64,000 bases of DNA, taken from contig CADBEF010000008.1 of NCBI GenBank assembly GCA_902793555.1, positions 420-64,419 on the forward strand, in the 5' to 3' direction. The notes below the pieces were generated by a model. The model had not been told where the DNA came from and did no database searches. It was given only the letters and a program-made list of their open reading frames with translations. The position numbers and the translations under genes are program-made. The stretch comes from an uncultured bacterium. GTDB lineage: Bacteria; Verrucomicrobiota; Kiritimatiellia; RFP12; UBA3636. Position 1 is the first letter of the stretch. Every line of letters starts with the position of its first letter. Below, one piece after another: positions 6,144 to 49,140 of this stretch.

Positions 6144-6195
6144 GGCTGTCTCCTGGAGGTTCCGTGGCGGGCGCGGTTCCGTCCGCACGCCCTTC

Positions 6196-6204
6196 AGTCT
6201 ACCA
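6196..6204 (-). promoter_or_regulatory. -10-like TGGTAGACT (minus strand) for the GH5-like gene
   Basis: Reverse complement of agtctacca. Followed by a ~50-nt leader with AGGAGA RBS before ATG at 6143. Confidence 0.3.
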
Positions 6205-6300
6205 GAACCCTCCGGACGCGTCCATTGATTCCGTGCCGAATGCCGGCAGTTTCCGTGCACGTCGTCCCGAGCGCGCTTGCCGCCCGGATGCGTTCTGCGC

Positions 6301-8102: not shown

Positions 8103-8111
8103 CGCGTCATT

Positions 8112-8139
8112 CCCGACCATCAAGACCATCCCGACCATG
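8112..8139 (+). repeat. Three 9-bp units (cccgaccat / caagaccat / cccgaccATG) ending in the start codon of the CE4 gene
   Basis: Member of the GACCATNNN leader-repeat family seen at seven gene starts. Confidence 0.85.
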
Positions 8140-8845: not shown

Positions 8846-8871
8846 GCGCGGGCGCCCCGGCGTCCGCGCGC
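8846..8871. terminator. Possible bidirectional hairpin between convergent genes
   Basis: gcgcgggcgcc cc ggcgtccgcgc: 11-bp imperfect stem with one mismatch. No clear U-tract. Confidence 0.25.
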
Positions 8872-9785
8872 TAGACGATCGGGCCGTGATAGTCGCGCCA
8901 ACCGAGGATCTTGAGCTGCTCCGAGCGGTAGCGCTGCGGGGAGACGCCGAAGCGGCGCCGGAACAGCGCCGCGAAGTAGGCCGGGTTCGGAAAGCCGCAC
9001 GAGACCGCGACCTCCGAAACCGAGCGGGAGTCGAGCACGAGGCCGCGCGCGGCGTTGAGGAGGCGGATCTCGCGCAGGTGCGCCTGCGGCGTGTCGCGGA
9101 AGACGTCCGCCCACCGCCGGAAGAACGTCCGCCGCGACATCCCCGCCGCCCGCGCGAGGTCCTCGAAATTCGTCTCCTGCGCGAAGCCGAGCCGCATCCG
9201 CTCCTCGGCCGCGCGCAGACGCTGCGCGACGGCGTCGCCCGCGTTCACGCCCGGCCGGCGGGCCCGCGGCGCGTTGAGGCGCGAAGCGACGGGCTTCTGC
9301 GCCAGCAGGTTCGCCAGGACGAACCAGCAGGACGAGTCGATCTCGTCCGCCACGCCGCGCTCCGACACGCGCGGGAAGAGCTCGTCCCGCACGAAGTCGA
9401 CGACCTTCCGCAGCCGCGGCGACACGGAGACCCGCATCACGGGCGCCACGAAGTCGACGCCCGCCAGCTCCAGCAGCGGCATCATCGACGGCTGGTAGAT
9501 GAAGAAGAACGACTCCCGCCACGCGGGCGCGTCGTAGTCGTGCCGCACGCCGGGCCGCTGCACCAGCAGATGCGGATAGGTGGTGCGCCAGGGCTTCCCG
9601 TCGAAGCGGTCCGTCGCCGCCGGCTCGTCGGACCGCAGCCGCAGGCAGAACTCGACCCCGCCCTCGTGCCTGCCGTGGTAGTGCGCGTCGCCGCGGTCCA
9701 CCCACCCGACCGTCGAAACCCGGAACGGGAACTCGGTCACGCGCGGCAGCGCGCCGATGTTGAGCCATTGGAGGGGAGCGGACAT
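8871..9785 (-). CDS. AraC-family transcriptional regulator (cupin N-domain + C-terminal AraC HTH)
   Basis: C-terminal 'RRTFFRRWADVFRDTPQAHLREIRLLNAARGL...CGFPNPAYFAALFRRRFGVSPQRYR'. Start set at 'MSAPLQWLNIG' (9785), because the upstream part of the ORF is low-complexity and GC-poor. Confidence 0.8.
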   Translation of the reverse strand: MSAPLQWLNIGALPRVTEFPFRVSTVGWVDRGDAHYHGRHEGGVEFCLRLRSDEPAATDRFDGKPWRTTYPHLLVQRPGVRHDYDAPAWRESFFFIYQPSMMPLLELAGVDFVAPVMRVSVSPRLRKVVDFVRDELFPRVSERGVADEIDSSCWFVLANLLAQKPVASRLNAPRARRPGVNAGDAVAQRLRAAEERMRLGFAQETNFEDLARAAGMSRRTFFRRWADVFRDTPQAHLREIRLLNAARGLVLDSRSVSEVAVSCGFPNPAYFAALFRRRFGVSPQRYRSEQLKILGWRDYHGPIV

Positions 9786-9936
9786 GGGAGGGACGAGGGA
9801 CGAGTGACGAAAGACGGGGGACGAGGGAATCGTGGCGGGGAAAACGTTGGAAATCATACACGCAACGGTTCGGATTGTCACGAAGAATCGGGCAAGCGCC
9901 TGGCACGGATTCAAACAGGAATTGGCACAAAAATGA

Positions 9937-9965
9937 TTGAATTGCACATCGCCATCCACTACTAT
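9937..9965 (+). promoter_or_regulatory. Sigma70-like promoter TTGAAT-17-TACTAT in an AT-rich island
   Basis: ttgaat tgcacatcgccatccac tactat. Located ~110 nt upstream of the GH16 start, in the only AT-rich stretch of this intergenic region. Confidence 0.35.
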
Positions 9966-10014
9966 TAATGCTGTCTTCAGGATGAATTCCGACCATCTGC
10001 CCCCACCCGCACCG

Positions 10015-10055
10015 CATTCATCATTCAGCATTCAGCATTCAGCATTCAGCATTCC
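10015..10055 (+). repeat. Heptanucleotide microsatellite (CATTCAG)4 with partial flanking units
   Basis: cattca t cattcag cattcag cattcag cattcag cattcc. Lies in the 5' leader between the promoter candidate and ATG 10074. Confidence 0.95.
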
Positions 10056-10073
10056 ACTCAAATCCTCCCGACC

Positions 10074-11045
10074 ATGAACCGCATCATCCTCGCCACCCTC
10101 CTCCTCGCCGCTGGCGCGGCGCTCGCCGACGGCGCGCCCGATCCGAAAAAGGACCCTCGCCGCACCTACTCCACCGATGGCTGGGAGCTCGCCTGGAGCG
10201 ACGAGTTCAACGGCGCCGATCCGCTCGGCTACCTCGGGAACTGGCAGCACGAGGTCGGGTTCCTCCGCAACCACGAGCCGCAGTACTACACCAGCAACCG
10301 CGTCGCGAACTGCGTCCAGCGGGACGGCGTCCTCACGATCACGGCGCGCAAGGAGAAGTGGCCCAACCCGCTCTACAAGGACCGCGCGCTCGGCGGCTGG
10401 TACCGCCAGCGCGAGTTCGCGGACTACACATCCGCCGACCTCCAGTCGCGCCGCACGTTCCACTACGGGCGCGTCGAGTTCCGCGCGCAGATGCCCGGCG
10501 GCTGGGGCGCGTGGCCCGCGCTGTGGTTCCTCGGCGACTGCCTCCGCAAGCCAAAGGACGACCCCGAATACTACAACTGGCCCTGCTGCGGCGAAATCGA
10601 CCTCGTGGAGATCTGGGGAAACGCGCCGACCGGCGTCAAGGCCTGCCTGCACTCGTCGAAGATCGGCACGCGCGTGAAACCCAACGAGCAGCACACGGTG
10701 ACGGGCGGCGGCGAATTCCGCGCCAACCAGCCCGGCCAGGAGCCCTGGAACGGCTTCCACACCTACACGCTCGACTGGTACGAGGACCGGCTCTACATGT
10801 TCTACGACGGGCACCTCTACGCCGACGTCAACCTCGCCCGCAGCGACTGGCCGGACGGGCAGAACCCCTTCCGCAAGCCGATGTTCATCATCATGAACCT
10901 CGCCCTCGGCGGCTACGGCAACAAGGTCGTCGACGTGGACACCGTGGACGAGAAGAGCGGCAAGACGATTCCCGCCGCGAAGTTCCCGATGGAGCTGAAG
11001 ATCGACTGGGTGCGGCACTACCGCCGCGCCGGCTCCGCCGATTGA
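10074..11045 (+). CDS. GH16 beta-glucanase (laminarinase/licheninase-like), secreted
   Basis: Signal peptide 'MNRIILATLLLAAGAALA'. GH16 catalytic motif 'CGEIDLVE'. Preceded by 'tcccgaccATG'. Confidence 0.9.
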   Translation: MNRIILATLLLAAGAALADGAPDPKKDPRRTYSTDGWELAWSDEFNGADPLGYLGNWQHEVGFLRNHEPQYYTSNRVANCVQRDGVLTITARKEKWPNPLYKDRALGGWYRQREFADYTSADLQSRRTFHYGRVEFRAQMPGGWGAWPALWFLGDCLRKPKDDPEYYNWPCCGEIDLVEIWGNAPTGVKACLHSSKIGTRVKPNEQHTVTGGGEFRANQPGQEPWNGFHTYTLDWYEDRLYMFYDGHLYADVNLARSDWPDGQNPFRKPMFIIMNLALGGYGNKVVDVDTVDEKSGKTIPAAKFPMELKIDWVRHYRRAGSAD

Positions 11046-18173: not shown

Positions 18174-19366
18174 GAAGAACGATCCTCCCCCTGATTTCCG
18201 CCGCCGCGCTTCTTGCGCCGGCCGCCAACGCCGCGGAACCCGCGGCCGCAACCGCCGAACTTCCCGCCTGGCGCGACGCGCAGGGCGCCGGGCGCGGTGC
18301 GTACACGGTCGCCGTCCTCGGCGACACGCACTTCGACGCGGCGCCGGAGTCGGTCTACCATTCGCACTACGACGAGTCCAACCGCTACGCGAAGGTCCAG
18401 CACGAGGAGTTCCGCCGCAACGGCGAGATGTGGGCCCCCGGCGGACGCTGCCGATCGCTCGTCGCCGCCGGCGCGGCGCTCGCCGCCGCGGACCCCGCCA
18501 CGCGCTTCGTCCTGCAGCTCGGCGACCTCGTGCAGGGCGACTGCTACGACGACGGCGACCACCGCCGGATGCTCGACGACGGCCTGGCCGCCGTCCGCGG
18601 CCCCTTCCCCGCGGGCCTGCCGTTCCTCGCGGTCCTCGGCAACCACGACTACCGCGGCGCCGCCAGCGCGCGCGGCGTCACCCTCCGCTGGTTCGACGAG
18701 CTCCTCTCGCGCGAGACCGGCGCGCCGGTCTCCCTCCCGCTCCTCTCCTTCCGCGTGGACGACGACCGCTGGATCCTCTGCGACTTCGAGACGGTGGACC
18801 TCCTCGCCCTCGCGCGCGAGGTCGAGTCCGACCCGGACGCGCGCTACGTGTTCCTCGTCACGCACGGCCCCCTCACCGCGCCGGACGCGGCGAGCTGGCG
18901 CTGGAGCCTCAGCGGCTGGCCGAACAAGGGCGGCTGCGGGCGCGGCGTCCAGGAGCTCTTCGAGGCGGTCTCGCGCCGCCGCGCCATCGTGCTCTCCGGC
19001 CACATGCACTGGACGGCCTTCTTCCGCAACGAGAATCCGCTCGGCGGCTACACCGAGCTCACCGTCAACTCCGTCTGGAAGTCCGACGAGATCGCCACCG
19101 CCGAACCCGTCAACGACACCCCCGCCCAGTACGGCCTCCGCCGCCGCGACAAGGTGAACGCATGGGACCTCAAGGACTACGACGCCGCGATCGCACGCTA
19201 CAAGGCGGGCCTGAAGGAATACTTCCTCGGCCTCGGCGCGGGCCACTACCGCCTCGAGATCTCCGACGACAAGGTCCTTGCGCGCTTCTATCCCGGCGCC
19301 GCGACCGAGCCCGCGCGCACGTTCGATCTAACCCCAGGCAAGCCGCTTTGCGGCCGTGACGAGTGA
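18170..19366 (+). CDS. Metallophosphoesterase (calcineurin-like), secreted
   Basis: 'VAVLGDTHFD', 'LQLGDLVQGD', 'VLGNHDY' motifs. Signal peptide 'MRRTILPLISAAALLAPAANA'. ATGA overlap with the upstream gene. Confidence 0.85.
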   Translation: MRRTILPLISAAALLAPAANAAEPAAATAELPAWRDAQGAGRGAYTVAVLGDTHFDAAPESVYHSHYDESNRYAKVQHEEFRRNGEMWAPGGRCRSLVAAGAALAAADPATRFVLQLGDLVQGDCYDDGDHRRMLDDGLAAVRGPFPAGLPFLAVLGNHDYRGAASARGVTLRWFDELLSRETGAPVSLPLLSFRVDDDRWILCDFETVDLLALAREVESDPDARYVFLVTHGPLTAPDAASWRWSLSGWPNKGGCGRGVQELFEAVSRRRAIVLSGHMHWTAFFRNENPLGGYTELTVNSVWKSDEIATAEPVNDTPAQYGLRRRDKVNAWDLKDYDAAIARYKAGLKEYFLGLGAGHYRLEISDDKVLARFYPGAATEPARTFDLTPGKPLCGRDE

Positions 19367-19423
19367 AGAGTGAAGAGTGAAGAGTGAAGAGTAAAGAGTG
19401 AAGAGTGAAGAATGAAGAGTGAG
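19361..19423 (+). repeat. Heptanucleotide microsatellite (GAGTGAA)n, 9 units (variants gagtaaa, gaatgaa, gagtgag)
   Basis: Overlaps the TGA stop of the phosphoesterase (19364-19366) and contains the first ATG (19412) of the next gene. Confidence 0.95.
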
Positions 19424-24100: not shown

Positions 24101-26730
24101 TCTCGGACGGCGACGGCAACCGCCTCCCCTTCGAGATCGACACGTGGAACCCGGAGGGCGAATCGCTCGTCTGGGTCCGGCTGCCCGTCTTCGCCGACGG
24201 CGCGACGATCCACCTCGACTACGGCGCCTCGGACGCCGACGGCACCGCGGACGCCGCGGACGTCTGGCGGCGCTATGTCGCCGTCTGGCACATGAACGAA
24301 ATCCGCACGGACGCCGCCACGGGCAGACGCTACACCCCCGACTCCTCCGCGAGCGGCTGGCACGCCTACAAGTCCGTCGAGGCGGATGCCGTGCCCGCGC
24401 CCGTCACCGTCGCGGCCGGCGCCACCGCGCAGCCGACGCCCCCGACCGGCAGGGCGATGAACGTCGCCTTCGGCGCGGGGAAGTCGGATACGTCCGTCGG
24501 CGGCTTCGCGGTCCCCGCGAGCCAGACCGCCTCCACGACGCTGAACGGCCCCGGTTTCACGCTTTCGGCCTTCGTCAACTCGCATCAGGCCGCGAACAAC
24601 GGCCGCTGCCGCGTCATCGCGTTCGGAAACGCCTACAACGACAAGGCAAATCTCGCGGTCGGCAGCGACAGGATCTACAGCATGGGATCCAACAGCCACA
24701 ACAAGACCAATCCGAAGGGCGCGACGGGCTGGGTCCACGCGGCGGCCGTCTTCGGTTCGCCGCGGTCGAAGATCTACGCCGACGGCGTCTGCCTTTCCGG
24801 CAACAACGACGGCAATCCCGACCTCGCGAGTCTCGCGCTCGACAAAGGCATCGGACTCGGCTGCTTCACGGACGGCACGCAAAGCCTCGACGGCTACATC
24901 GACGAGGCGCGCATCCGCAACGCCGCCTCGACCGCTTCGTGGGCCGCCGCCGAGTACGCCGCGATGGCGGACCCGGACGTCGTCCGCTTCGGCGGGGCGC
25001 GCTACCTCGAGATGCCGGTCCTCGAAGCGCCGCCTTCCCTGGCCTGGTACCGGAACGGGTTCGTCCACTCCGCCACCGTCGCCTACGGGCGCGGCGACGT
25101 GCTCCTCGCGACGGTCGACCTGTACGACGGTTCCGCGACCACGAACGCGGCGCACTCGTTCGATTCGGCCGCCTCGCTGCCGCAGGCGCTATCGGAGAAC
25201 GTCGAACTCCCGGAGAACCGGATGTACCGGGGCGTCGCGATTCTGCGCTCGCCGGACGGCTCGGAGGAAGATCTCGCGGCCGCCCGCGAGACGGTCTACT
25301 CCGGATCGATTTCCGTCACGTGGGTCCGGGACGCCGACATCGCGGCGATGACGCCCGCCATCGTCCGGCTTTCCCGCGCGGACACCGAGGCCGCGACCTG
25401 CGCGCCTCTCGAAGTGTCGTTCGCGCTTGCCGGCGAGGCGGTCTCGAAGGGCCTTGTCGAGCCCGTCGCGTCCGCGACGATTCCGGCCGGGGAAAGCTTC
25501 GTCGAGGTCGAGATCCGGCCGATCGCCCGGAGCGTCGTTCCCGGCGACTACCTCGCGACGCTGACGGTCGCGGGGACGAACGTCGCCCGTCCCGGCGCGC
25601 AGGTCGAGTTCGGCGTCCGCAACGCCGGCGCCGACCCCTACGTGCGCTACGTCGCCCCGAACGGCGACGACGGGAACGACGGCGCGCTCGCCACGACCCC
25701 CAAGCGGACCGTCGCCGCGGCCCTCGCCTCGTTCTCCGAGAACGCCCGGTCGGTGCTCTGCACGGTCCGCGTCGCCCCGGGCCTCTACCCGGTCTCCTCG
25801 CCGATCGTGCTCACGAACGCCGTCCGCATCATCGGCGACGACTCCGATCCGTCCCGCGTCGTCGTGTCGAACACGACGAACGTCGACTATTACAACCAAA
25901 ACCACCGGTGCATCCGGATCAACCATGCCGATGCCGTGGTTTCGGGAATGACGTTCGAGAACGGAAAAGACTACGGCAACGGCGGCAACCTCCGCATCGA
26001 CGCGAACGGAGGCATGGTCACCAACTGCATTCTGGTCAACGGTTACACGCGCGAAGGCAGCGATTCCGGCGGCGCGAACGTGGCGATCACGGGCCCCGGA
26101 CTCGTGACGCATTGCCGGATTCTCGGCGGCAGCCAGAACAACTGCAGCGGCTGCAAACGGGTGTCCTCGGTCTGTCTCGAGCATGCGGACGCCCGGATCG
26201 AGAACTGTCTCGTAAGCGGATTCCGGGGAGCGACGGTTTCCACCCAGCCAACCGTGGGATGCGCCGGAATCCTCGTCGACAAAGGAGCCGCGATCAACTG
26301 CATGGTCGTGGATTGCACGTCGCCCTACACGACGGCATCCGGCTTCGCGGGAATCCTGCTGTGGGCGAACGGTCGCGCCGTGGACTGCGTTTCGGTCGGC
26401 AACGTCGACAGCAACGGCACGGTCCGCGCGTTCATGGCGTCGCAGGCGACCCGCGCGATCAACTGCGCGTTCGACGCGATCGCCGGCGAGGCGGTCGTTC
26501 CGGAAGGCATGGTCGGCGCCGTCGTCGGCACGCCCGCGTCGTTCTTCCGCAACTACGCCCGCGGCGACTACCGCCCGCGCAGCGGCGGGCCGCTCGTGAA
26601 CGCCGGCGCGAACTACGAGCCGATGGCGGGCGTCGACCTCTCCGGCGTCCAGCCGCGCAAGGTCGGCTCCCGCGTCGACATCGGATGCTACGAAGCCTTC
26701 GCCGAAACTTCGATCCTGATCCTGAGATGA
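21139..26730 (+). CDS. Giant secreted multidomain protein (1863 aa): discoidin-like N-domain, Ig/FN3-like repeats, two right-handed beta-helix domains, DUF2341-like and LamG-like modules
   Basis: Signal peptide 'MKLRFLPAVAILLSLLAPAARA'. RBS AAGGAG 7 nt upstream of ATG. Beta-helix signature 'NQNHRCIRIDHAGAVVSG...GGMVTNCIL' occurs twice. Ends '...ETSILILR'. Confidence 0.85.
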   Translation: MKLRFLPAVAILLSLLAPAARAEEVTLPAGYVPVNLVTNVGGSASSDTKCLNNNSSYGVSRAFDKKYYSDDTRWIGHGSTFPQHAVWTFPDPTIVDTVRIYNASYDGAKQSPSDFTIAGSNDGSDWTTLDTESGVTGWSANKFRTFQFVNRTPYLKYRLEVTDVQGHSRMSISEIELYRVNQASFDVVPSGSPAVGIDSFSTDWILAVEEGSTADAGLVWSTDDSFATATTNSLGTGLAAGTRTASLADLEPATTYWWKIYADNGTDVAESTIGSFTTTGSPLFGAVSAASDGNAASFSVALAEAALGNTLSTSVSVLYGTDGETWTALPLGSSATPAAMSGTLENLDWGTTYQWFALATATMEGGRVLSTSTSTNSFTTLWDGDLYVSNGNASAEAPYSTWATAAPDIATAISLATDGATIHVAPGRYKISTSLSLAKAVRIVGNDADPSRVVVSNTGDVSYSEQNHRCIRIDHAGAVVSGLAFENGKVYGQGGNVLIGSNGGMVTNCILSGGYARSGTSSAGANVSIQGPGRVTHCTILGGWQNNCTGCTKTSSAHVGHADARMENCLVDGFRGSDVSSQATKNACGIYVEKGVAANCTVVNCTSPYTEASGFAGILIPTNDGLALNCVSVANADSNDTVRAFVPSQVSRTSHCAFDAIAGEAAVPEGMAGAVVGTPESFFPRFADDAIAAIKYRPGPSSPLLDAGEDYAPMAAFDLSGQQPRRVGASVDIGCYEDGYLAIEATGEPTVGLESFATDFVLGTDVPADVWIVWSADASFAAASTNRVAEGATNGVHEAAVGGLATDTAYWWKLVATNGVFAVETAPASFRTLGAPVIGTLSEAVSGPTVTFSVDLASVARDALGNGIRTYVTVFCSTNGTDWIEQSLGSAIRARTVLGAATLPNGVWTWYARASAESGGRTFAAESGTRTFRVFHNATPPAGFRRVDVEIAYDGEPAEDIPVLLRLSEAIEGFRYADVANDGRDFLFSDGDGNRLPFEIDTWNPEGESLVWVRLPVFADGATIHLDYGASDADGTADAADVWRRYVAVWHMNEIRTDAATGRRYTPDSSASGWHAYKSVEADAVPAPVTVAAGATAQPTPPTGRAMNVAFGAGKSDTSVGGFAVPASQTASTTLNGPGFTLSAFVNSHQAANNGRCRVIAFGNAYNDKANLAVGSDRIYSMGSNSHNKTNPKGATGWVHAAAVFGSPRSKIYADGVCLSGNNDGNPDLASLALDKGIGLGCFTDGTQSLDGYIDEARIRNAASTASWAAAEYAAMADPDVVRFGGARYLEMPVLEAPPSLAWYRNGFVHSATVAYGRGDVLLATVDLYDGSATTNAAHSFDSAASLPQALSENVELPENRMYRGVAILRSPDGSEEDLAAARETVYSGSISVTWVRDADIAAMTPAIVRLSRADTEAATCAPLEVSFALAGEAVSKGLVEPVASATIPAGESFVEVEIRPIARSVVPGDYLATLTVAGTNVARPGAQVEFGVRNAGADPYVRYVAPNGDDGNDGALATTPKRTVAAALASFSENARSVLCTVRVAPGLYPVSSPIVLTNAVRIIGDDSDPSRVVVSNTTNVDYYNQNHRCIRINHADAVVSGMTFENGKDYGNGGNLRIDANGGMVTNCILVNGYTREGSDSGGANVAITGPGLVTHCRILGGSQNNCSGCKRVSSVCLEHADARIENCLVSGFRGATVSTQPTVGCAGILVDKGAAINCMVVDCTSPYTTASGFAGILLWANGRAVDCVSVGNVDSNGTVRAFMASQATRAINCAFDAIAGEAVVPEGMVGAVVGTPASFFRNYARGDYRPRSGGPLVNAGANYEPMAGVDLSGVQPRKVGSRVDIGCYEAFAETSILILR

Positions 26731-27869
26731 AAACGCCTGTCCTTTCCGCCGACTTTCCCGGCGGCAACGTCCGCGTCCTCGGCATCGAGGGCGACACCGT
26801 CCACCTCGCGCCCGATCTGCGCGAGACGCAGCGCTTCTGGTTCTTCTGGCGCTTCCGCGCGACGTTCCCGGCCGCGGGGACATGGCGCTTCGAGTTCCCG
26901 GACGGCAATTGCGTCGGGACGCGCGGGCCCGCCGTGCGTCGAGCTGGCGAGCGTGCCTGGCGCTGGCTCTCCGGCGACGCGCTCCACGAGTCCGACCGCG
27001 TCTTCGAGTGGACGTCCGCCGGGACGGAGACGGTCGAGTTCTGCCAGTGCATCCCGTACCAGGGCGCGGACTTCGACGCGTTCGCCGCGTCCTTCGCGGG
27101 CGACCCGCGCGTCACGGTCGCCGAGCTCTGCCGCTCGCGCGCCGGGCGGTCCGTCCCGCTGCTCCGCCTGCGCGAAGGCGAGCCGGCGCAGGCGGTGCTC
27201 TTCACCTGCCGGCACCACGCGCAGGAGTCGATGGCGTCCTTCGCGCTCGAGGGACTGCTCCGCGCGCTCGCGTCGGACGAACCGTGGGCGGCGGCGTTCC
27301 GGGGCGCGTTCGAGGTCCTCGCGGTGCCGTTCGTAGACCGCGACGGCGTCGAGGACGGCACGCAGGGCAAGTTCCGCCTCCCGCACGACCACAACCGCGA
27401 CTACGGCGCGGCGGGCGGGCACCTCTACCCCGAGTGCGCGGCGCTCGAACGGCTCCTCGACGAGCGGCGGCCCGCCGCCGTGCTCGACCTGCACTGCCCC
27501 TACATCCGCGGCGGCGAGACGAACGAGCACGCCTACCTCGTCGGCATCCAGGCGGAGCGCCTGCGGCCCGCGCAGGCCGCCTTCGGCGCGCTGCTCGAGA
27601 GGCGCTGCCCGCCCGAGTCGCCCTACTTCGCCGCGGACACGCTCCCCTTCGGCGCGCTGTGGAACCAGCCGACCGACTTCTCCGGCGGCTCCGGCATGGG
27701 CTTCTCGCGCTGGGCGGCGGCGAAGCCCTGGCCGCGCCTCGCGAGCGGCATCGAAATCCCCTTCGCGAACTTCCGCGAGAAGACCCAGACGCCGGACACA
27801 ATCCGCGCATTCGGCCGCGGCATCGCCGCCGCCCTCGCCGAGTTTCTCGCTACGCCCGCAAGGGGTTGA
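26727..27869 (+). CDS. M14-like zinc hydrolase (carboxypeptidase / AstE-AspA-like fold)
   Basis: 'CRHHAQESMAS' (HxxE zinc motif), 'HDHNRDY', 'LDLHCPYIRGGE'. Start overlaps the giant gene stop (ATGA). No signal peptide. Confidence 0.65.
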   Translation: MKTPVLSADFPGGNVRVLGIEGDTVHLAPDLRETQRFWFFWRFRATFPAAGTWRFEFPDGNCVGTRGPAVRRAGERAWRWLSGDALHESDRVFEWTSAGTETVEFCQCIPYQGADFDAFAASFAGDPRVTVAELCRSRAGRSVPLLRLREGEPAQAVLFTCRHHAQESMASFALEGLLRALASDEPWAAAFRGAFEVLAVPFVDRDGVEDGTQGKFRLPHDHNRDYGAAGGHLYPECAALERLLDERRPAAVLDLHCPYIRGGETNEHAYLVGIQAERLRPAQAAFGALLERRCPPESPYFAADTLPFGALWNQPTDFSGGSGMGFSRWAAAKPWPRLASGIEIPFANFREKTQTPDTIRAFGRGIAAALAEFLATPARG

Positions 27870-27937
27870 CACCACCCCGCCACGCCCCGGGTGGGGTCGC
27901 ATGGCACGGATTCAGCCAAGATTCGGCACGGAAACAA

Positions 27938-27966
27938 TTGCCGCGTGTGCGCGCGTTCGCTATAAT
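27938..27966 (+). promoter_or_regulatory. Sigma70-like promoter TTGCCG-17-TATAAT
   Basis: ttgccg cgtgtgcgcgcgttcgc tataat, ~105 nt upstream of ATG 28071. Confidence 0.5.
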
Positions 27967-28012
27967 CGGTTTCAAACTTGTGGCCCTTCCGCCCTCGTCC
28001 GGCCGTACGCCA

Positions 28013-28073
28013 GCCCAGACCATCCAGACCATACGACCATACGACCATACGACCATCTGACCATCCGACCATG
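28013..28073 (+). repeat. Leader repeat array: seven degenerate 8/9-bp units (cagaccatc cagaccata cgaccata cgaccata cgaccatc tgaccatc cgaccATG) ending in the start codon
   Basis: Preceded by the conserved module 'cggccgtacgccagcccaga', which recurs at 37465-37487. Confidence 0.9.
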
Positions 28074-32000: not shown

Positions 32001-32010
32001 CTTCCGTCTT

Positions 32011-32042
32011 CGCCCGGCGCCCGCGTCGGCTTCGGCCGGGCG
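32011..32042 (+). terminator. Hairpin cgcccggc-N16-gccgggcg downstream of the giant gene
   Basis: 8-bp perfect GC stem, 11 nt after the stop. Weak U-tract. Confidence 0.3.
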
Positions 32043-32218
32043 TCGCGGTTCCGTCCGAAGGAAGGACCGACATGGCAGAATCCTCGCAAGTGGCAGCCGC
32101 CGACCACGCGCGCCCCGGGCCCGACTGGCGCGCGGCGGGCGGCCTCTTCCATCTCTTCGAAGCGCTCTGGCGCGGATTCTGCCAGGGTTCGGCGCTGCCA
32201 GGCCTCCGTTTCGCGCGC

Positions 32219-32248
32219 TTGACACGCGCGCGGGGAGTTTGGTAGGTT
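32219..32248 (+). promoter_or_regulatory. Sigma70-like promoter TTGACA-18-TAGGTT (paralog of 21028-21057) plus a conserved leader and GGAG RBS
   Basis: cttgacacgcgcgcggggagtttggtaggtt. The ~110-nt leader is ~75% identical to the leader upstream of 21139. Confidence 0.45.
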
Positions 32249-32327
32249 TCGACCTGAAGGGACGCCCCATCCGGGCGGACCTGCTTTCAAAGCCCGTCAA
32301 TCACCCGGTTGACACGTGGAGATTCCC

Positions 32328-37375: not shown

Positions 37376-37458
37376 ACCCCGTCCTTTCCGCGGACTTTCC
37401 CGGCGGCGGCGCGGTGGTGCTCGGCCCCGACGGCGCAACCGTCCGCCTCGCGAACCCA
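37372..37458 (+). pseudogene. Remnant of the M14-like gene 5' end (first ~29 codons: 'MNPVLSADFPGGGAVVLGPDGATVRLA'), fused in-frame to the downstream leader repeat and GH16 gene
   Basis: Nucleotide and protein homology to 26727-26815 ('MKTPVLSADFPGGNVRVLGIEGDTVHLA'). Homology ends at ~37458, where the 'cgtacgccag...gaccatcc' leader module begins. Confidence 0.6.
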
Positions 37459-37483
37459 ACGCCCATCGTTCGGTCGTACGCCA

Positions 37484-37512
37484 GTCCAGACCATCCGGAC
37501 CATCCGACCATG
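37484..37512 (+). repeat. Leader repeat (cagaccatc cggaccatc cgaccATG) ending in the GH16 start codon
   Basis: Same family as 28013-28073, with the same upstream 'cggtcgtacgccagtcca' module. Confidence 0.9.
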
Positions 37513-38411: not shown

Positions 38412-38493
38412 CTAGCCCATCCAGACCATCCCGACCATCCCGACCATCCCGACCATCCCGACTATCCAGACCATCCAGACCATCCCGACCATG
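38412..38493 (+). repeat. Tandem array of nine 9-bp units (consensus GACCATCCC; one 'gactatcca' variant) ending in the ATG of the GH10-like gene
   Basis: cccatccagaccatcccgaccatcccgaccatcccgaccatcccgactatccagaccatccagaccatcccgaccATGccc. Confidence 0.95.
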
Positions 38494-39933
38494 CCCTCCC
38501 CGCTCTCCCCCGCCTACTACGACCGCTGGAACGCCGACGAACAGGCGCGCATCGACGCGGACATCGAGAAATACCGCAAGGCCGACGCGACCGTCGCGCT
38601 CGGTGCCCCCGCCGGCGCCGAGGTGACGGTCGAACAGACCACGCACGCGTTCCGCTTCGGCGCGCACACGTTCAACTTCGACCAGCTCGGCTCGCACGAG
38701 CGCAACGAGCGCTACAAGGCGCTCTGGAACGGCGCCTTCGCCGACGGCGCGCTCTTCAACTCCGGCACCATCGCGTTCTACTGGCGCCCGTTCGAGCCCG
38801 TCGAGGGCAAGATGCGCTTCGACCCCGCCCCCGAGGACTCGGAGGACTGGTGGAACGCCTGCCCCGACCCGAAGGAGCAGCGCTTCTGGCGCCGCCCGCC
38901 GAGCGAGCCCGTCGTGCGCTTCCTGGAGGACAAGGGCGCCTGGCGCCACGGCCACCCGCTCGTCTGGTCCAACCACGAATGGCACTATCCGGACTGGCTC
39001 ATGGCGAAGCTCCCCAAGGAGATCATGGCCGAGATGCTCACGGACGACCGTTCCGGCGTCTCGATCATGAAGCAGCCGATGGAGACGGTCCTCAAGCGGC
39101 TCCCCGCGGACTTCCCCGCCCAGGTCGAGTCCGCGCACCGCCGCCGCATCGAGGCCATCGCCGCGCGCTACGCCGACCGCGTGGACAGCTGGGACGTCTG
39201 CAACGAGAGCGCGAACGACTGGACCGCCGGCCGGCTCGTCCGCGGCGCCCCGCTCTCCCGCAGCTACCGCTTCTCGTGGCTGCCCGGCGACTACTGCCAC
39301 TGGGCCTTCCGCGAGTGCATGCGCCTCTTCCCCGCGAAGAGCGTCCTCTCGATCAACGACTACCAGCTCGACGCCGACTACGCCGAGCAGACGCGCGACC
39401 AGCTCGCCCGCGGCGACAAGATCGACCTGCAGGGCATGCAGATGCACCTGTTCAACCCCGCGGACTGCGAGGCGATCGCGCAGGGGAAGATCGAGCTGCG
39501 CTCGCCGGCGCACGTCCGCTCGCAGATCGCCGCCGCGCACGCGCGCCCCGGCCTGCCGATCCACCTCTCCGAGATCACGATCTCCGCGCCCGGCGGCGAC
39601 GAGCGCGGCGAGGTCGTCCAGGCCGAGATCGCCCGCAACCTCTACCGCCTGTGGTTCTCGCTGCCGGACATGGTGGCCATCACCTGGTGGAACGTCGTCG
39701 ACGACTGCGGCGCGCCCGGCGAGCCGTCCGTCTCGGGGCTCTTCCGCCGCGACATGACGCCGAAGAAGGCCTTCTTCGCGCTCGACCGCCTGATCAACGA
39801 CGAGTGGCGCACGCGCCTCACGGCGAAGGCCGACGCCACCGGCGCCGTCGCCTTCCGCGGCTTCCGCGGCTCCTACCGCCTCTCCTGGCGCGACGCCTCC
39901 GGCGCGTCCTGCGAAGCAACCACATCCATCTAG
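38491..39933 (+). CDS. GH10-like glycoside hydrolase (clan GH-A), xylanase-type motifs
   Basis: 'WDVCNE' (catalytic acid motif WDVVNE-like) and 'HLSEITISA' (nucleophile ITE-like). No signal peptide. Confidence 0.7.
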   Translation: MPSPLSPAYYDRWNADEQARIDADIEKYRKADATVALGAPAGAEVTVEQTTHAFRFGAHTFNFDQLGSHERNERYKALWNGAFADGALFNSGTIAFYWRPFEPVEGKMRFDPAPEDSEDWWNACPDPKEQRFWRRPPSEPVVRFLEDKGAWRHGHPLVWSNHEWHYPDWLMAKLPKEIMAEMLTDDRSGVSIMKQPMETVLKRLPADFPAQVESAHRRRIEAIAARYADRVDSWDVCNESANDWTAGRLVRGAPLSRSYRFSWLPGDYCHWAFRECMRLFPAKSVLSINDYQLDADYAEQTRDQLARGDKIDLQGMQMHLFNPADCEAIAQGKIELRSPAHVRSQIAAAHARPGLPIHLSEITISAPGGDERGEVVQAEIARNLYRLWFSLPDMVAITWWNVVDDCGAPGEPSVSGLFRRDMTPKKAFFALDRLINDEWRTRLTAKADATGAVAFRGFRGSYRLSWRDASGASCEATTSI

Positions 39934-39975
39934 ACCAACCCGACCATCAAGACCATCTAGACCATCTAGACCATG
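39934..39975 (+). repeat. Leader repeat (ccgaccatc aagaccatc tagaccatc tagaccATG) ending in the GH2 start codon
   Basis: Same 9-bp family. Contains in-frame TAG codons, so it is not translated from upstream. Confidence 0.9.
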
Positions 39976-41649
39976 GACCCTCTTTCCCTGAACGGCTCCT
40001 GGGCCTTCCGATTCGAGGAGGGCGCCCTCCTCGCCGACGCCGCCCGCCCCGACTTCGAGCCCGCCTGCACGATCGCCGTGCCCGCGTGCTTCGATACGCT
40101 CCCGGACTGGTACCTCCGGCGAGGCGTCGGCCTCTACCGGCGCACGTTCCGCCTCGACCGCGACGTCCCCGCCGCGTGGCTCCGCGTGGACGGGATGGGG
40201 CTCGTCGGAGCCTTCTGGATCGACGGCCGCCCGATCGGCGAAAGCGCCCTCCCCTACTCCACCCTGCGCATCCCGACCGGACCGCTCGCCGCCGGCGAGC
40301 ACGTGCTCGCCGCCGCGCTCGGCAACCGGCTCGACGAGCCGCGCCTCGCGCTCGCCAAGCCCTACTACGACTTCTACCTCCACGGCGGCTTCTACCACGG
40401 CGTCTCGCTCGTCTTCGACGACCGGTCCCTCCGAGTCCGCACGCGCGACATCCGCGACGGCACCGTCGAGATCGAGGTCGTGAACGTCCCGAAGCCCGAC
40501 TTCGGCGCGACGCTTCTCTTCGACGGCCGCAACGCCGTCTCCGCGTCCTTCCGCGGCGGCCGCGCGACCGTCCGCGTCCCGGACTTCCGCCTCTGGTCAC
40601 CGAATTCTCCGAACCTCCACACCGTGGAGCTTGTCGACCATCCCGACCATCCAGACCATCCGACCATCCAGACCAAGTTCGGCATCCGCGCCATCGAGGC
40701 CCGCGCCGGCCGCATCCTCCTCAACGGCGAGCCGATCTTCCTCAAGGGCGCGAACCGCCACGAGGCGCACCCGACCTTCGGCGCGGCGACGCCCGAGGCG
40801 GTGATGCTCGCCGACATCCAGAACCTCAAGGCGCTCGGCGCGAACTTCGTCCGCGGCGCGCACTACCCGCAGGCGGAGCGCTTCCTGGACCTCTGCGACG
40901 AGAACGGCCTCCTCGTCTGGGAGGAGACGCTCGGCTGGGGCAACGGCACGCCGTGGAACGACCCCGCGAAGAAGGAGTTCGCGAACCCCGACTTCCTCGC
41001 GGACAACCTCGCACAGGCGCGGCTGATGGTCGAAAAGTCGTTCAACCACCCGTCCGTGGTCCTCTTCGGCTTCCTCAACGAGTTCGCGAGCGACACGCCC
41101 GACGGCAAGGCCGTCGCCGACCGGATCGTCGCGCAGATCCGCTCCTACGACTCCGGCCGGCTCGTCACCTTCGCGTGCAACCACAACGCGAGCGACATCG
41201 CCAACGAGGCCACGGACGTCGTCTCCTTCAACACCTACCCGGGCTGGATCGGTTCGCAGCCCGGCACGCCGGAGCATCTGCAGGAACTGATGGAGAAGGA
41301 CCTCGCGGGCATCGTCGCGTACTTCCGCTCGAAGTGGCCGGGCAAGCCCATCCTCGTCTCCGAAATGGGCGCGTGCGGCGAATACGGCCGCCACGACGCG
41401 GCCGCGGCGCAGTGGACCGAGGAGTTCGAGGCCGAGTACCTCGCGGACGCCGCGCGCGCCGTCGCCGCGCGTCCGGAGATCTGCGGCTTCACGATCTGGC
41501 AGCTCGCCGACTGCCGCAGCTTCCACCGCGGCGGCGCGGACGTCCGCTGCAAGCCCTTCGCGGAGAACCTCGCCGGGATCTACGACGGCTACCGCCGCCC
41601 GAAGCTCCCCGTCGTCGCCGCCGTCAAGGCCGCCTTTCGTGCCGGCTAG
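39973..41649 (+). CDS. GH2-family glycoside hydrolase (beta-glucuronidase/beta-galactosidase/beta-mannosidase-like)
   Basis: 'LKGANRHE', 'NHPSVVLFGFLNE' (acid/base) and 'ILVSEMGA' (nucleophile). Contains the in-frame DHP repeat insert at 40636-40672. Confidence 0.85.
   Translation: MDPLSLNGSWAFRFEEGALLADAARPDFEPACTIAVPACFDTLPDWYLRRGVGLYRRTFRLDRDVPAAWLRVDGMGLVGAFWIDGRPIGESALPYSTLRIPTGPLAAGEHVLAAALGNRLDEPRLALAKPYYDFYLHGGFYHGVSLVFDDRSLRVRTRDIRDGTVEIEVVNVPKPDFGATLLFDGRNAVSASFRGGRATVRVPDFRLWSPNSPNLHTVELVDHPDHPDHPTIQTKFGIRAIEARAGRILLNGEPIFLKGANRHEAHPTFGAATPEAVMLADIQNLKALGANFVRGAHYPQAERFLDLCDENGLLVWEETLGWGNGTPWNDPAKKEFANPDFLADNLAQARLMVEKSFNHPSVVLFGFLNEFASDTPDGKAVADRIVAQIRSYDSGRLVTFACNHNASDIANEATDVVSFNTYPGWIGSQPGTPEHLQELMEKDLAGIVAYFRSKWPGKPILVSEMGACGEYGRHDAAAAQWTEEFEAEYLADAARAVAARPEICGFTIWQLADCRSFHRGGADVRCKPFAENLAGIYDGYRRPKLPVVAAVKAAFRAG
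40636..40672 (+). repeat. In-frame intragenic copy of the GACCATCCN 9-bp repeat, encoding 'DHPDHPDHPT' in a GH2 inter-domain loop
   Basis: gtcgaccatcccgaccatccagaccatccgaccatccag. The same DNA unit forms the upstream leaders. Confidence 0.9.
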
Positions 41650-49000: not shown

Positions 49001-49140
49001 GGCGGGATTCGGGTTTCGGGAGACGGGTTTCGCGGCGGGTTTCGGCGCGGCGCCGTCGCGCCGCGGGCGGGTTTCGCGAAACCCGAAACCCGAGTCCCGC
49101 GGCGAATCCCGAAATCCGAATCCCGAATCCCGAAATTGCA
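49001..49140. repeat. Imperfect long inverted repeat built from GGGTTTC / GGGATTC heptamers, centred on the 16-bp palindrome gggtttcgcgaaaccc. The right arm is (CGAATCC)-like x5
   Basis: gggattcgggtttcggg...gggtttcgcgaaacccgaaaccc...gaatcccgaaatccgaatcccgaatcccgaaa. Confidence 0.85.

What the first reader, a model, noticed from the sequence alone, without database searches (positions are those of the whole stretch)
10015..10055. AT-rich heptanucleotide microsatellite (CATTCAG)4-5 in the leader of the GH16 gene
In a ~70% GC genome, a perfect 7-bp microsatellite lies between a TTGAAT-17-TACTAT promoter candidate and the GH16 start, and between the divergent AraC regulator and GH16. Heptamer repeats change promoter-to-start spacing and leader length in 7-nt steps. 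This is a classic contingency-locus architecture.
Basis: seen in the sequence. Interest (0 to 1): 0.6.

Follow-up and report, generated by a model that had tools for sequence, protein, structure and literature searches.

The report
Variable heptamer repeat in GH16 leader
The 7-base repeat in front of the GH16 gene is real and changes in copy number between strains, but it is one of many short repeats that this rumen Kiritimatiellia bacterium places just ahead of start codons, so it looks like a genome-wide feature of untranslated leaders rather than a dedicated on/off switch.

Summary
Window 10014-10054 carries (GCATTCA)x5.9: four perfect CATTCAG units, one TCATTCA variant and a partial unit. 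It ends 19 nt before the GH16 ATG (10074), downstream of the TTGAAT-17-TACTAT candidate, and is divergent from an AraC-type gene.

The array is not a one-off. The 64-kb window has 7 strong 7-9-nt arrays (0 in 30 shuffles), and 6 end within 20 nt 5' of a start codon on the sense strand, including one in the AraC leader. Related high-GC contigs show such arrays before housekeeping genes (cytidylate kinase, GDP-mannose dehydratase).

Same-species strains (~97% DNA identity) carry four different alleles of the heptamer array. Sister strains have a (GGCCATCCC)2-3 array there instead. Near-clonal assemblies never differ. The array is in the leader, not between -35 and -10 or inside GH16.

Best reading: slippage-generated leader repeats giving G-poor, start-codon-free, weakly folded RNA before Shine-Dalgarno-less starts. 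Copy number would tune expression, not switch it. Closest precedents are Beggiatoaceae TAACTGA and Xanthomonas/Nostoc GGGNATC heptamers.

One switch-like possibility remains: an upstream AUG (9982) opens a uORF through the array, and its frame depends on copy number.

The parts
10014..10054 (+). Heptamer array (GCATTCA)x5.9, the finding. It lies in the predicted 5' UTR of GH16.
   Evidence: TRF; sequence; unique in the window; alleles in other strains.
9937..9965 (+). Candidate sigma-70-type promoter TTGAAT-17-TACTAT for GH16.
   Evidence: Read from the sequence. It matches 8/12 consensus positions and was not called by the scan. The -10 is TACAAT in L110/L111. It sits at the same 36-nt distance from a GGCAC motif as two other promoters in the window. 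Function is inferred.
9901..9936 (+). Two direct copies of a TGGCACGGATTCA-like motif (9901-9913 and 9922-9936), probably an activator (AraC-type) operator.
   Evidence: Conserved in L094-L099 and L110/L111 although the downstream promoter and leader are replaced. The motif recurs upstream of the genes at 28071 and 6143. Inferred.
9982..10077 (+). 31-codon uORF that runs through the array. Its TGA overlaps the GH16 ATG (ATGA).
   Evidence: Whether this AUG is used is unknown.
10055..10073 (+). Non-repeated 3' leader CACTCAAATCCTCCCGACC, carrying the lineage's usual pre-start context (...CCCGACC ATG) and no SD.
10074..11045 (+). GH16 glycoside hydrolase with an N-terminal signal peptide.
9788..9828 (-). 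Second heptamer array (GTCCCTC-type on the sense strand) in the AraC leader, ending 2 nt before the AraC ATG (9785).
   Evidence: TRF. Unit gain or loss between strains.
9853..9881 (-). Promoter-like site GTGACA-17-TATGAT for the AraC gene.
   Evidence: 10/12 matches.
8871..9785 (-). AraC-family regulator.
8110..8138 (+). Leader array (CATCCCGAC-type, 3 units) abutting the deacetylase ATG. Same class.
   Evidence: 3 versus 6 units between strains.
19356..19422 (+). (GTGAAGA)x9.6 array between the upstream gene's stop codon and the GH20 ATG (19427). Same class, but a purine-rich unit.
28018..28072 (+). (GACCATAC)x6.8 array that runs into the ATG at 28071.
37485..37511 (+). (TCCGGACCA)x3.1 array that runs into the ATG of a second GH16 gene (37510).
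   Evidence: The 298-aa gene call in L183 confirms this start.
38417..38492 (+). (CCATCCCGA)x8.4 array that runs into the GH10 ATG (38491).
   Evidence: Unit order differs in L183-187.
39917..39974 (+). (CCATCTAGA)x5.4 array that spans the GH10 stop codon and runs into the GH2 ATG (39973).
   Evidence: L187 has 2 units.
40635..40675 (+). Array of the same family inside the GH2 coding sequence (translated DHPDHPDHPTIQT). It is a recombination junction in other strains.

Best explanation
The (GCATTCA)~6 tract is a slippage-generated simple-sequence repeat in the 5' untranslated leader of a secreted GH16 enzyme, in a high-GC rumen Kiritimatiellia bacterium. It belongs to a lineage-wide population of 7-9-nt tandem repeats that sit immediately 5' of start codons on the sense strand. 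Shown here: the placement, the strand bias, the absence of a Shine-Dalgarno sequence, the weak predicted folding, and the turnover of units between strains. Inferred: these arrays persist in leaders because they supply G-poor RNA that contains no AUG, GUG or UUG and cannot fold. In a 70% GC genome this keeps the SD-less start site (...CCCGACC-AUG-AAn) accessible as a ribosome landing or standby region. Under this reading, copy-number changes (7-nt steps by replication slippage or unequal recombination) lengthen or shorten the spacer and at most tune GH16 output. They do not switch it on and off.
For: The array is real and non-random. 7 strong arrays occur in 64 kb against 0 in 30 shuffles, and 6 of the 7 end within -2 to +20 nt of a curated start codon in the sense orientation (binomial P about 7e-12). 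In the single AraC|GH16 divergent spacer, each gene has its own array, and each array is G-poor on its own mRNA strand. None of the 8 repeat-bearing leaders has an SD 4-mer, against 5 of 20 others; this difference is not significant. Their G content is lower (0.17 vs 0.25, P=0.006) and the predicted folding of -40..+20 is weaker (mean -4.7 vs -10.3 kcal/mol, P=0.003). The whole GH16 leader folds no better than shuffles (z=+0.5), and no Rfam family matches. None of the array-led genes' last 40 leader nt contains NTG, except the GTGAAGA array. Downstream genes have no functional theme: GH16, GH10, GH2, GH20, deacetylase and AraC in the window, and cytidylate kinase, GDP-mannose dehydratase, UDP-glucose dehydrogenase, LacI, Zn-ADH and an Hpt protein in related high-GC contigs. 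Turnover by units: the heptamer array has 4 alleles among strains about 97% identical in DNA; the AraC-leader array gains or loses 7 nt among contigs encoding an identical AraC protein; the deacetylase leader has 3 vs 6 units; the GH2 leader has 2 vs about 6 units. Precedents with the same anatomy are the TAACTGA repeats of Beggiatoaceae (PMC4679880) and the GGGNATC repeats of Xanthomonas and Nostoc (PMC4692102).
Against: There is no direct evidence of any effect on translation. The weaker folding could simply follow from skewed composition. The sample is one 64-kb window with 28 hand-curated starts. Most genes here are co-directional with short gaps, so an intergenic array is almost bound to lie upstream of some start. 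The precise abutment and the strand bias are the stronger arguments. This particular array stops 19 nt short of the ATG, and its unit, unlike the GACCATCC family, does not recur elsewhere in the window. GH16 homologues at about 80-87% identity in lower-GC relatives have plain GGAGG-type leaders and no array, so the array is not needed for GH16 expression in general. An AUG at 9982 upstream of the array does not fit a strictly start-codon-free leader. The TSS is predicted, not mapped.
Confidence: 0.5

Rival explanations
1. Contingency locus. Slipped-strand mispairing changes the heptamer count at high frequency, and this switches or grades GH16 expression. The most concrete route found here is translational. 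The AUG at 9982 opens a uORF through the array. With the window's count, its stop overlaps the GH16 AUG (AUGA), which favours termination-reinitiation. With one unit fewer, the same AUG reads through GH16 out of frame. With one unit more, it fuses in frame to GH16.
For: Four array alleles occur among same-species strains. All three Logan contigs that reach this locus (from three different runs) end inside the array although it contains no repeated 31-mer, which suggests branching from mixed alleles. The uORF geometry has a period of 3 in copy number, and the natural L093 allele is in the read-through state. Precedents for SSRs in a 5' UTR that modulate expression are the hmw1A/hmw2A ATCTTTC heptamers (PMC8262952) and the uspA2 AGAT repeats (cited in PMC4679880). 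This organism also seems able to start at 5'-proximal AUGs: four genes have a -10 box 7-9 nt before the ATG.
Against: There are only 4 perfect units. Near-clonal assemblies (identical, or 3 SNPs in 4.4 kb) share the same allele, and in the AraC-leader array pairs at 99.6% identity or above never differ. This points to rates far below classic contingency loci. The array does not overlap the -35/-10 boxes or the GH16 ORF. Sister strains have a completely different array and no uORF at the same position. Arrays of this class precede housekeeping genes. The 9982 AUG has an atypical context (GG-AUG, against CC-AUG in 20 of 28 starts) and the uORF has 47% GC3.
Confidence: 0.17
2. Neutral by-product. 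This lineage has a replication or repair background that readily creates 7-9-nt tandem duplications. They survive wherever they do no harm (short leaders, a few protein loops) and have no function of their own.
For: Many different unit sequences occur (GCATTCA, GTCCCTC, GTGAAGA, GACCATCC, CCAACGAC and others). Arrays also occur inside coding regions (GH2 at 40635-40675; a GH3-like loop in L121). Heptamers are reported to be the commonest long SSR class in many genomes and are attributed to polymerase slippage (Mrazek 2007, as summarised in PMC4679880). Relatives lack the array.
Against: There is a strong sense-strand and start-proximal bias, including opposite polarity of the two arrays within one divergent spacer. 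Many arrays end exactly on the AT of the ATG. The GH10 leader array kept the same total length while its units were re-ordered.
Confidence: 0.2
3. The units are binding sites for a repeat-recognising RNA-binding protein (for example S1, a cold-shock-domain protein or a CsrA-like protein). That protein would recruit or block ribosomes, forming a post-transcriptional regulon as proposed for the TAACTGA repeats. A variant is that they load Rho (C-rich, G-poor rut-like RNA), coupling transcription to translation.
For: The placement over the expected ribosome-binding region without an SD is the same as in Beggiatoaceae, where this was proposed (PMC4679880). The GACCATCC family recurs at many genes. 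The leaders are C-rich and G-poor.
Against: Unit sequences differ widely between genes, and the GCATTCA unit occurs only once in the window, so a single sequence-specific binder cannot cover them. The same orthologous leader carries unrelated units in sister strains. A 41-nt tract with 29% C is a poor rut site. No candidate protein was identified.
Confidence: 0.1
4. A non-B DNA element (G-quadruplex or i-motif), as shown in vitro for the GGGNATC heptamers of Xanthomonas and Nostoc.
For: Other arrays in the window have G3 runs on the antisense strand (GGGATGGTC, GAGGGAC) and have the same position and strand as the Xanthomonas repeats (PMC4692102).
Against: Neither strand of the GCATTCA/TGAATGC unit has a run of G or C, so the element under study cannot form a G4 or an i-motif.
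Confidence: 0.02

Closest known systems
TAACTGA heptamer direct repeats of marine Beggiatoaceae (MacGregor 2015, PMC4679880)
   Same: Tandem heptamers with 2-6 copies per site at many sites per genome. Most lie a few nt upstream of start codons in the forward orientation, over the expected RBS. SD is rare in repeat-bearing leaders. Downstream genes show no functional theme and include essential genes. A few arrays lie inside ORFs. The function is unproven, and translational roles have been proposed.
   Different: In Beggiatoaceae one unit sequence is used genome-wide. Here several unrelated 7-, 8- and 9-nt units occur, and GCATTCA occurs once. The genome here is high-GC and from a different phylum (Kiritimatiellota). 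The main family here (GACCATCC) includes the start context itself.
GGGAATC / GGGGA(C/T)T heptamer repeats of Xanthomonas and Nostoc (Rehm et al. 2015, PMC4692102)
   Same: Abundant intergenic heptamer SSRs. Most lie within 50 bp upstream of an ORF with the G-rich strand antisense, so the mRNA strand is C-rich. Length and sequence vary widely between close relatives. The genes have no functional theme, and the authors judged phase variation unlikely. The window also contains a GGGTTTC/GAAACCC array pair (49003-49135).
   Different: Those repeats are defined by G-tracts and G4 formation, with a preference for 4 units. GCATTCA has no G-tract.
Haemophilus influenzae hmw1A/hmw2A (ATCTTTC)n and Moraxella catarrhalis uspA2 (AGAT)n 5'-UTR repeats (PMC8262952; cited in PMC4679880)
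   Same: An SSR between a promoter and the start codon that is carried in the 5' UTR. For hmw the unit is also 7 nt. Copy number differs between isolates.
   Different: Those tracts are long and perfect (13-24 units for hmw in the cited study, 6-23 for uspA2). They overlap promoter elements (hmw P2 -10 and P1 -35), control surface adhesins of host-adapted pathogens, and have measured effects on expression. Here the tract has about 6 units, lies 48 nt from the -10, is one of many such arrays before unrelated genes, and has no expression data.
Long simple sequence repeats with 5-11-nt units (Mrazek et al. 2007, as summarised in PMC4679880) and cyanobacterial STRR heptamers (own knowledge)
   Same: Certain lineages are rich in 5-11-nt tandem repeats, heptamers being the commonest, and this is attributed to polymerase slippage.
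   Different: Kiritimatiellia are not among the LSSR-rich genomes named in that summary. The tight abutment to start codons is not a general LSSR property.

Membership tests
SSR-mediated phase-variable contingency locus | A long, perfect, hypermutable repeat tract | tested here: inconclusive
   5.9 units, of which 4 are perfect (33 nt of perfect periodicity). This is shorter than the hmw tracts studied experimentally (13-24 units, PMC8262952).
SSR-mediated phase-variable contingency locus | The tract is placed so that one-unit changes alter expression: inside the ORF, between -35 and -10, or over a regulator site | tested here: not met
   The array lies 48 nt downstream of the candidate -10 and 19 nt upstream of the GH16 ATG, outside the ORF. 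The only possible route is a hypothetical uORF from AUG 9982.
SSR-mediated phase-variable contingency locus | Copy-number heterogeneity within clonal populations or among very close isolates | tested here: inconclusive
   Identical and 99.93%-identical assemblies share the allele. Strains at about 97% identity carry 4 alleles. Three Logan contigs break inside the array. Raw reads were not available.
SSR-mediated phase-variable contingency locus | Association with surface, host-interaction or restriction-modification genes rather than general metabolism | tested here: not met
   Arrays of this class precede AraC, deacetylase, GH10, GH2 and GH20 genes. In related contigs they precede cytidylate kinase, GDP-mannose dehydratase, UDP-glucose dehydrogenase, LacI and ADH genes.
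SSR-mediated phase-variable contingency locus | Copy number changes expression | not testable with these tools
   This needs reporter constructs or expression data.
Lineage-wide start-proximal 5-11-nt SSRs (TAACTGA / GGGNATC type) | Many tandem arrays of 5-11-nt units per genome, far above chance | tested here: met
   7 arrays in 64 kb against 0 in 30 shuffles. More arrays occur in related contigs.
Lineage-wide start-proximal 5-11-nt SSRs (TAACTGA / GGGNATC type) | Located within about 50 nt upstream of start codons with a consistent strand polarity | tested here: met
   6 of 7 arrays end at -2 to +20 nt from a start on the sense strand, P about 7e-12. The two arrays in the divergent spacer have opposite polarity.
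Lineage-wide start-proximal 5-11-nt SSRs (TAACTGA / GGGNATC type) | Repeat-bearing leaders usually lack a Shine-Dalgarno sequence | tested here: met
   0 of 8 repeat-bearing leaders have an SD 4-mer, against 5 of 20 others; the difference is not significant. The class Kiritimatiellae is reported to have a canonical anti-SD and 63% SD use (PMC10783764).
Lineage-wide start-proximal 5-11-nt SSRs (TAACTGA / GGGNATC type) | Length and sequence variation of arrays between close relatives at conserved positions | tested here: met
Lineage-wide start-proximal 5-11-nt SSRs (TAACTGA / GGGNATC type) | One characteristic unit sequence shared by the arrays of a genome | tested here: not met
   GCATTCA occurs only at this locus in the window. 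Other arrays use GTCCCTC, GTGAAGA and the recurrent GACCATCC family.
hmw-type heptamer 5'-UTR rheostat | The heptamer tract is transcribed in the 5' UTR and overlaps promoter hexamers | tested here: not met
   The tract is probably transcribed, given its position after the candidate -10 (inferred). It overlaps no promoter hexamer.

The most novel reading that the evidence does not exclude
The heptamer array is a three-state translational switch. The first AUG of the transcript (9982) opens a uORF through the array. At the window's copy number, the uORF stop overlaps the GH16 AUG (AUGA), which allows termination-reinitiation. With one unit fewer (as in strain L093), the same ribosomes run 358 codons through GH16 out of frame and occlude its start. 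With one unit more, they make an N-terminally extended GH16. This would be a new way for a non-coding-looking SSR to give phase variation in a commensal gut bacterium. More broadly, these repeat leaders may act as portable SD-independent initiation cassettes that also serve as recombination joints, shuffling CAZyme genes.
Probability: 0.1. Interest if true: 0.7.

Novelty: new member of a known kind. Interest (0 to 1): 0.4.

Why it matters
If the leader repeats do help SD-less initiation in a 70% GC genome, they point to an under-studied way of building ribosome entry sites. They would also explain why such repeats cluster before start codons in scattered lineages (Beggiatoaceae, Xanthomonas, Nostoc and now rumen Kiritimatiellia), a question the earlier papers left open. 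These arrays also break short-read assemblies. They mislead gene callers: here a start was called 138 nt too far upstream. They mark rearrangement junctions in polysaccharide-degradation loci of uncultured rumen bacteria. For the specific claim, the result is a caution: a start-proximal microsatellite is not by itself evidence of a contingency locus.

Tried and rejected
- Orthologous GH16 leaders in other species. The closest genome hits (L003-L007, 58-80% aa) and cluster members at about 87% (L086-L092) have different neighbours, SD-type leaders and no array, so they say nothing about copy number.
- JGI metagenome scan for the array's 3' junction found 0 hits.
- My last contig look-up (deacetylase variant P0034) returned contigs that stop before the GH16 leader.
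- Known RNA families. No Rfam match at gathering threshold anywhere in the window. At E up to 1 in the spacer there was only one chance-level snoRNA hit. The leader has no significant fold. A riboswitch or attenuator is rejected.
- Translated array. The GH16 frame is open from 9969, but no ATG, GTG or TTG precedes 10074 in that frame, and the protein starts with a normal signal peptide. Rejected.
- Sigma-54 reading of TGGCAC. The GG-to-GC spacing is 3 nt too long in all three copies (read from the sequence). Rejected in favour of an activator site.
- A promoter inside or after the array giving a leaderless GH16 mRNA. There is no acceptable -35/-10 pair (reading).
- G-quadruplex or i-motif. The unit has no G or C runs.
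- Protein-binding iterons on DNA. A 7-bp period puts successive units on different helix faces. No evidence for this; not pursued.

Full report
**1. Observation.**
Tandem Repeats Finder reports an array at 10014-10054 with period 7, 5.9 copies, 94% matches and consensus GCATTCA. The sequence reads GCATTCA TCATTCA GCATTCA GCATTCA GCATTCA GCATTC, followed by CACTCAAATCCTCCCGACC and the ATG at 10074. Four units are perfect.

The two-unit pattern with up to 1 mismatch occurs nowhere else in the window, and 0 are expected in shuffles. The downstream ORF (10074-11045) is a GH16 with a signal peptide. The divergent ORF (8871-9785, minus strand) is an AraC-family regulator. The spacer is about 49% GC in a 69.6% GC window.

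It matches only 8 of 12 consensus positions and was not called by the promoter scan. That scan did find GTGACA-17-TATGAT for the AraC gene on the other strand.

**2. Organism.**
The closest genome hits to the GH16 are Kiritimatiellia MAGs from rumen and gut. A cluster member is named as a Kiritimatiellae protein, and the window is part of an 86-kb NCBI contig. Two ENA rumen assemblies carry the locus at 100% identity and at 99.93% (3 SNPs in 4.4 kb).

**3. The array is not alone.**
The window has 7 arrays of period 6-10 with at least 4 copies and score at least 50, against 0 in each of 30 dinucleotide-preserving shuffles. I curated 28 gene starts using GC3 frame plots, signal peptides and gene calls on related contigs.

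- Six of the seven arrays end between -2 and +20 nt of a start codon on the sense strand (binomial P about 7e-12).
- These are the AraC leader (9788-9828, GTCCCTC-type on the mRNA strand), this GH16 leader, GH20 (19356-19422), the 28071 gene, GH10 (38417-38492) and GH2 (39917-39974).
- Weaker arrays precede the deacetylase (8110-8138) and a second GH16 (37485-37511).
- The seventh strong array lies inside the GH2 coding sequence (40635-40675, translated DHPDHPDHP).

The dominant family, GACCATCC(C/A), is a tandem copy of the normal pre-start context. Even genes without arrays read ...CATCCCGACC ATG AAA. In total 20 of 28 starts are CC-ATG, and 6 of the 10 CGACCATG occurrences in the window are gene starts.

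**4. Properties of repeat leaders.**
- None of the 8 repeat-bearing leaders has a 4-mer of AGGAGGT in the SD position, against 5 of 20 others. This difference is not significant.
- Overall SD use is 5 of 28, low against the 63% reported for reference Kiritimatiellae, which have a canonical CCUCCUUU anti-SD (PMC10783764).
- GH16 homologues at about 80-87% identity in lower-GC relatives have GGAGG/GAGGAG leaders and no array.
- Repeat leaders have less G (0.17 vs 0.25, P=0.006).
- They have weaker predicted structure over -40..+20 (mean -4.7 vs -10.3 kcal/mol, P=0.003).
- The whole predicted GH16 leader (9975-10110) folds at -11.8 kcal/mol, no better than shuffles (z=+0.5). The array itself is unpaired.
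- Rfam finds nothing.
- Except for the GTGAAGA array, the units contain no NTG triplet, so they add no start codons.

**5. No functional theme.**
A metagenome scan for three GACCATCCC units returned 71 contigs from varied sources. In the high-GC subset the arrays again end on GACCATG followed by long high-GC3 ORFs. Several of those contigs are homologous to window genes (GH2 in L128/L158, GH10 in L172). By Pfam the ORFs include GDP-mannose 4,6-dehydratase, cytidylate kinase, UDP-glucose dehydrogenase, a LacI regulator, a Zn-dependent dehydrogenase and an Hpt protein. The taxonomy of those contigs is inferred, not shown.

**6. Copy-number and sequence turnover.**
Writing G for GCATTCA, T for TCATTCA and g for the partial unit, the alleles of the GH16 heptamer array are:

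| Source | Allele | Note |
|---|---|---|
| Window, L001, L002, L084 | G T G G G g | L084 is partial |
| L093 (GH16 99.4% aa, about 97% DNA) | G G G G g | one unit fewer |
| L110 | G T T T G G... | contig ends in the array |
| L111 | G T G T G... | contig ends in the array |

In strains whose AraC is 98-99% identical (L094-L099), the segment from the promoter to the ATG is replaced. It reads TTGCTT-17-TATGAT followed by (GGCCATCCC)2 or 3 and then AGACCATG. The GH16 gene there is only 84% identical in DNA.

Other arrays also change by whole units:
- The AraC-leader array differs between these groups. In ten contigs that encode one identical AraC protein (98.2-100% DNA identity), three lack one 7-nt unit.
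- The deacetylase leader has 3 vs 6 units.
- The GH2 leader has 2 vs about 6 units.
- The GH10 leader keeps 8.4 units but with a different unit order.

Pairs at 99.6% identity or above never differ in any array. This places the rate of unit change near one event per roughly 1% sequence divergence. That is clearly faster per site than substitution, but by rough inference it is orders of magnitude slower than classic contingency loci.

All three Logan contigs that reach the heptamer array end inside it, although it has no repeated 31-mer. L110 and L111 also end in the deacetylase array at their other end. This hints at mixed alleles within samples but does not prove it.

**7. Arrays as rearrangement joints (class-level).**
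Relative to the window, L183-186 lack 27862-37485, with the junction between the arrays at 28018-28072 and 37485-37511. L183, L184 and L186 also lack 39965-40637, between the GH2 leader array and the GH2 intragenic array. L185 joins the same array to a different GH2 paralogue at the same TKFGIR junction.

**8. Interpretation.**
The array lies in the predicted 5' UTR, 48 nt after the -10 and 19 nt before the ATG. A 7-nt step therefore alters neither promoter spacing nor the GH16 frame. Together with points 3 to 6, this fits a slippage-generated leader SSR of a lineage-wide class.

I infer that such repeats are retained because they give G-poor, start-codon-free, unfolded RNA in front of SD-less starts in a very GC-rich genome. 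Copy number would then be a tuning or drifting parameter. The function is inference; the anatomy and population behaviour are shown.

**9. Rivals.**
- (a) Contingency locus. The architecture, tract length, near-clonal stability and gene spectrum argue against the classic form.
- One concrete switch remains possible. AUG 9982, 6-10 nt from the predicted TSS, opens a 31-codon uORF through the array, and its TGA overlaps the GH16 ATG. With one unit fewer (the natural L093 allele) it reads 358 codons through GH16 out of frame. With one unit more it is in frame with GH16. Four genes in the window have -10 boxes only 7-9 nt before their ATG, so 5'-proximal initiation may be common here. Against this, the AUG context is atypical (GG-AUG), and the sister-strain leaders have no uORF.
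- (b) Neutral by-product of slippage. This fits the diversity of units and the intragenic arrays. It does not fit the strand and position bias.
- (c) Sites for a repeat-binding protein or for Rho. This is weakened by the diversity of units and the uniqueness of GCATTCA.
- (d) G4 or i-motif. Excluded for this unit by its sequence.

**10. Comparison with known systems.**
The same anatomy has been described for TAACTGA heptamers in Beggiatoaceae. They lie just upstream of starts in forward orientation, SD is rare, there is no functional theme, and some are in ORFs (PMC4679880). It has also been described for GGGNATC heptamers in Xanthomonas and Nostoc. These lie within 50 bp upstream of ORFs with the G-rich strand antisense and vary widely between relatives, and the authors judged phase variation unlikely (PMC4692102).

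The hmw (ATCTTTC)n and uspA2 (AGAT)n tracts are the experimentally proven 5'-UTR SSR modulators. They differ in tract length, promoter overlap and gene class (PMC8262952).

The finding is therefore a new member of a known kind, in a phylum where I found no earlier description. It is not a classic contingency locus.

**11. Verdict.**
- Observation: confirmed.
- Interpretation: partly supported.
- Interest: moderate (0.4). The single array is fairly ordinary. The class-level picture is worth a targeted follow-up: start-context repeats, low SD use, recombination at arrays, and a possible uORF frame switch.

Noticed in passing
window 9901-9936; ~27880-27915; ~6190-6215 (minus strand): A GGCACGGAWWCA-like motif sits exactly 36 nt upstream of the -10 hexamer in three promoters, as two copies 22 nt apart at the first two. 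It is conserved in strains whose downstream promoter and leader are replaced. It is probably the operator of an AraC-type activator and may define a small polysaccharide-utilisation regulon.
   Followed up: partly
window 54932, 59762, 63040 (+) and 62881 (-): Four genes have a TTGAC(A/C/G)-17-TA(G/T)NNT promoter whose -10 ends only 7-9 nt before the ATG. This suggests leaderless or near-leaderless mRNAs.
   Followed up: no
window, 28 curated starts: The start context is unusual: C at -1 in 21 of 28 starts, C at -2 in 24 of 28, no T at -3 to -1, and an A-rich second codon (CC-ATG-AAA). SD 4-mers occur in only 5 of 28 starts, against 63% reported for the class.
   Followed up: partly
window 9982-10077: A 31-codon uORF runs through the heptamer array and its stop overlaps the GH16 ATG (ATGA). 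Its frame relative to GH16 rotates with copy number.
   Followed up: partly
window 40635-40675: A GACCATCC-family array lies inside the GH2 coding sequence (DHPDHPDHPTIQT), between the N-terminal domain and the TIM barrel. Orthologues in JGI contigs L128 and L158 have variant units.
   Followed up: partly
window 27862-37485 and 39965-40637 versus L183-L187: Large indels between strains have their junctions at arrays of the GACCATCC family. In L185 the array is joined to a different GH2 paralogue. The arrays behave as recombination joints.
   Followed up: partly
window 37372-37509: Remnant N-terminus (46 codons) of an M14-peptidase paralogue of gene 26727-27869, which is intact in L183. A gene caller extended the downstream GH16 to this ATG (344 aa in L085). 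The true start is probably 37510 (298 aa in L183).
   Followed up: partly
window 37158/37159: A 28-nt indel relative to the otherwise 99.98%-identical assembly L085, inside the giant ORF 32328-37370. It shifts the reading frame near the C-terminus and is either an assembly difference or a real variant.
   Followed up: no
window 61171-62881 (minus strand): The GC3 frame plot shows one apparent gene (signal peptide MKRTHLLLAAALVG...) continuing in three different frames. This suggests two frameshifts, from a pseudogene or from assembly errors.
   Followed up: no
window 49003-49135: Inverted heptamer arrays (CGGGTTT/CGGGATT facing CGAAACC/CGAATCC) lie between two co-directional minus-strand genes. 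They fold into a long hairpin (-88 kcal/mol, z=-4.4). The units resemble the Xanthomonas GGGAATC repeat. The element may be a terminator or a REP-like element.
   Followed up: partly
window 19356-19422: (GTGAAGA)x9.6 is the longest heptamer array in the window. It is purine-rich and almost free of C. It begins before the stop codon of the upstream gene and ends 4 nt before the GH20 ATG. Each unit contains both GTG and TGA.
   Followed up: no
L171 7138-7171 (JGI contig Ga0247608_10009437): A (GCATTST)x4.9 heptamer array, similar in unit to the one studied, lies inside a signal-peptide coding region (MKYTRALLPALCILHSALCIAP...). There a one-unit change would frameshift the gene, which is the classic phase-variation layout.
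   Followed up: no
L121 3728-3792: Two adjacent heptamer arrays (GGTCGCA x4.3 and GACTTGC x4.4) lie inside a GH3-like gene, in the loop after the FGFGLSYTTF motif.
   Followed up: no
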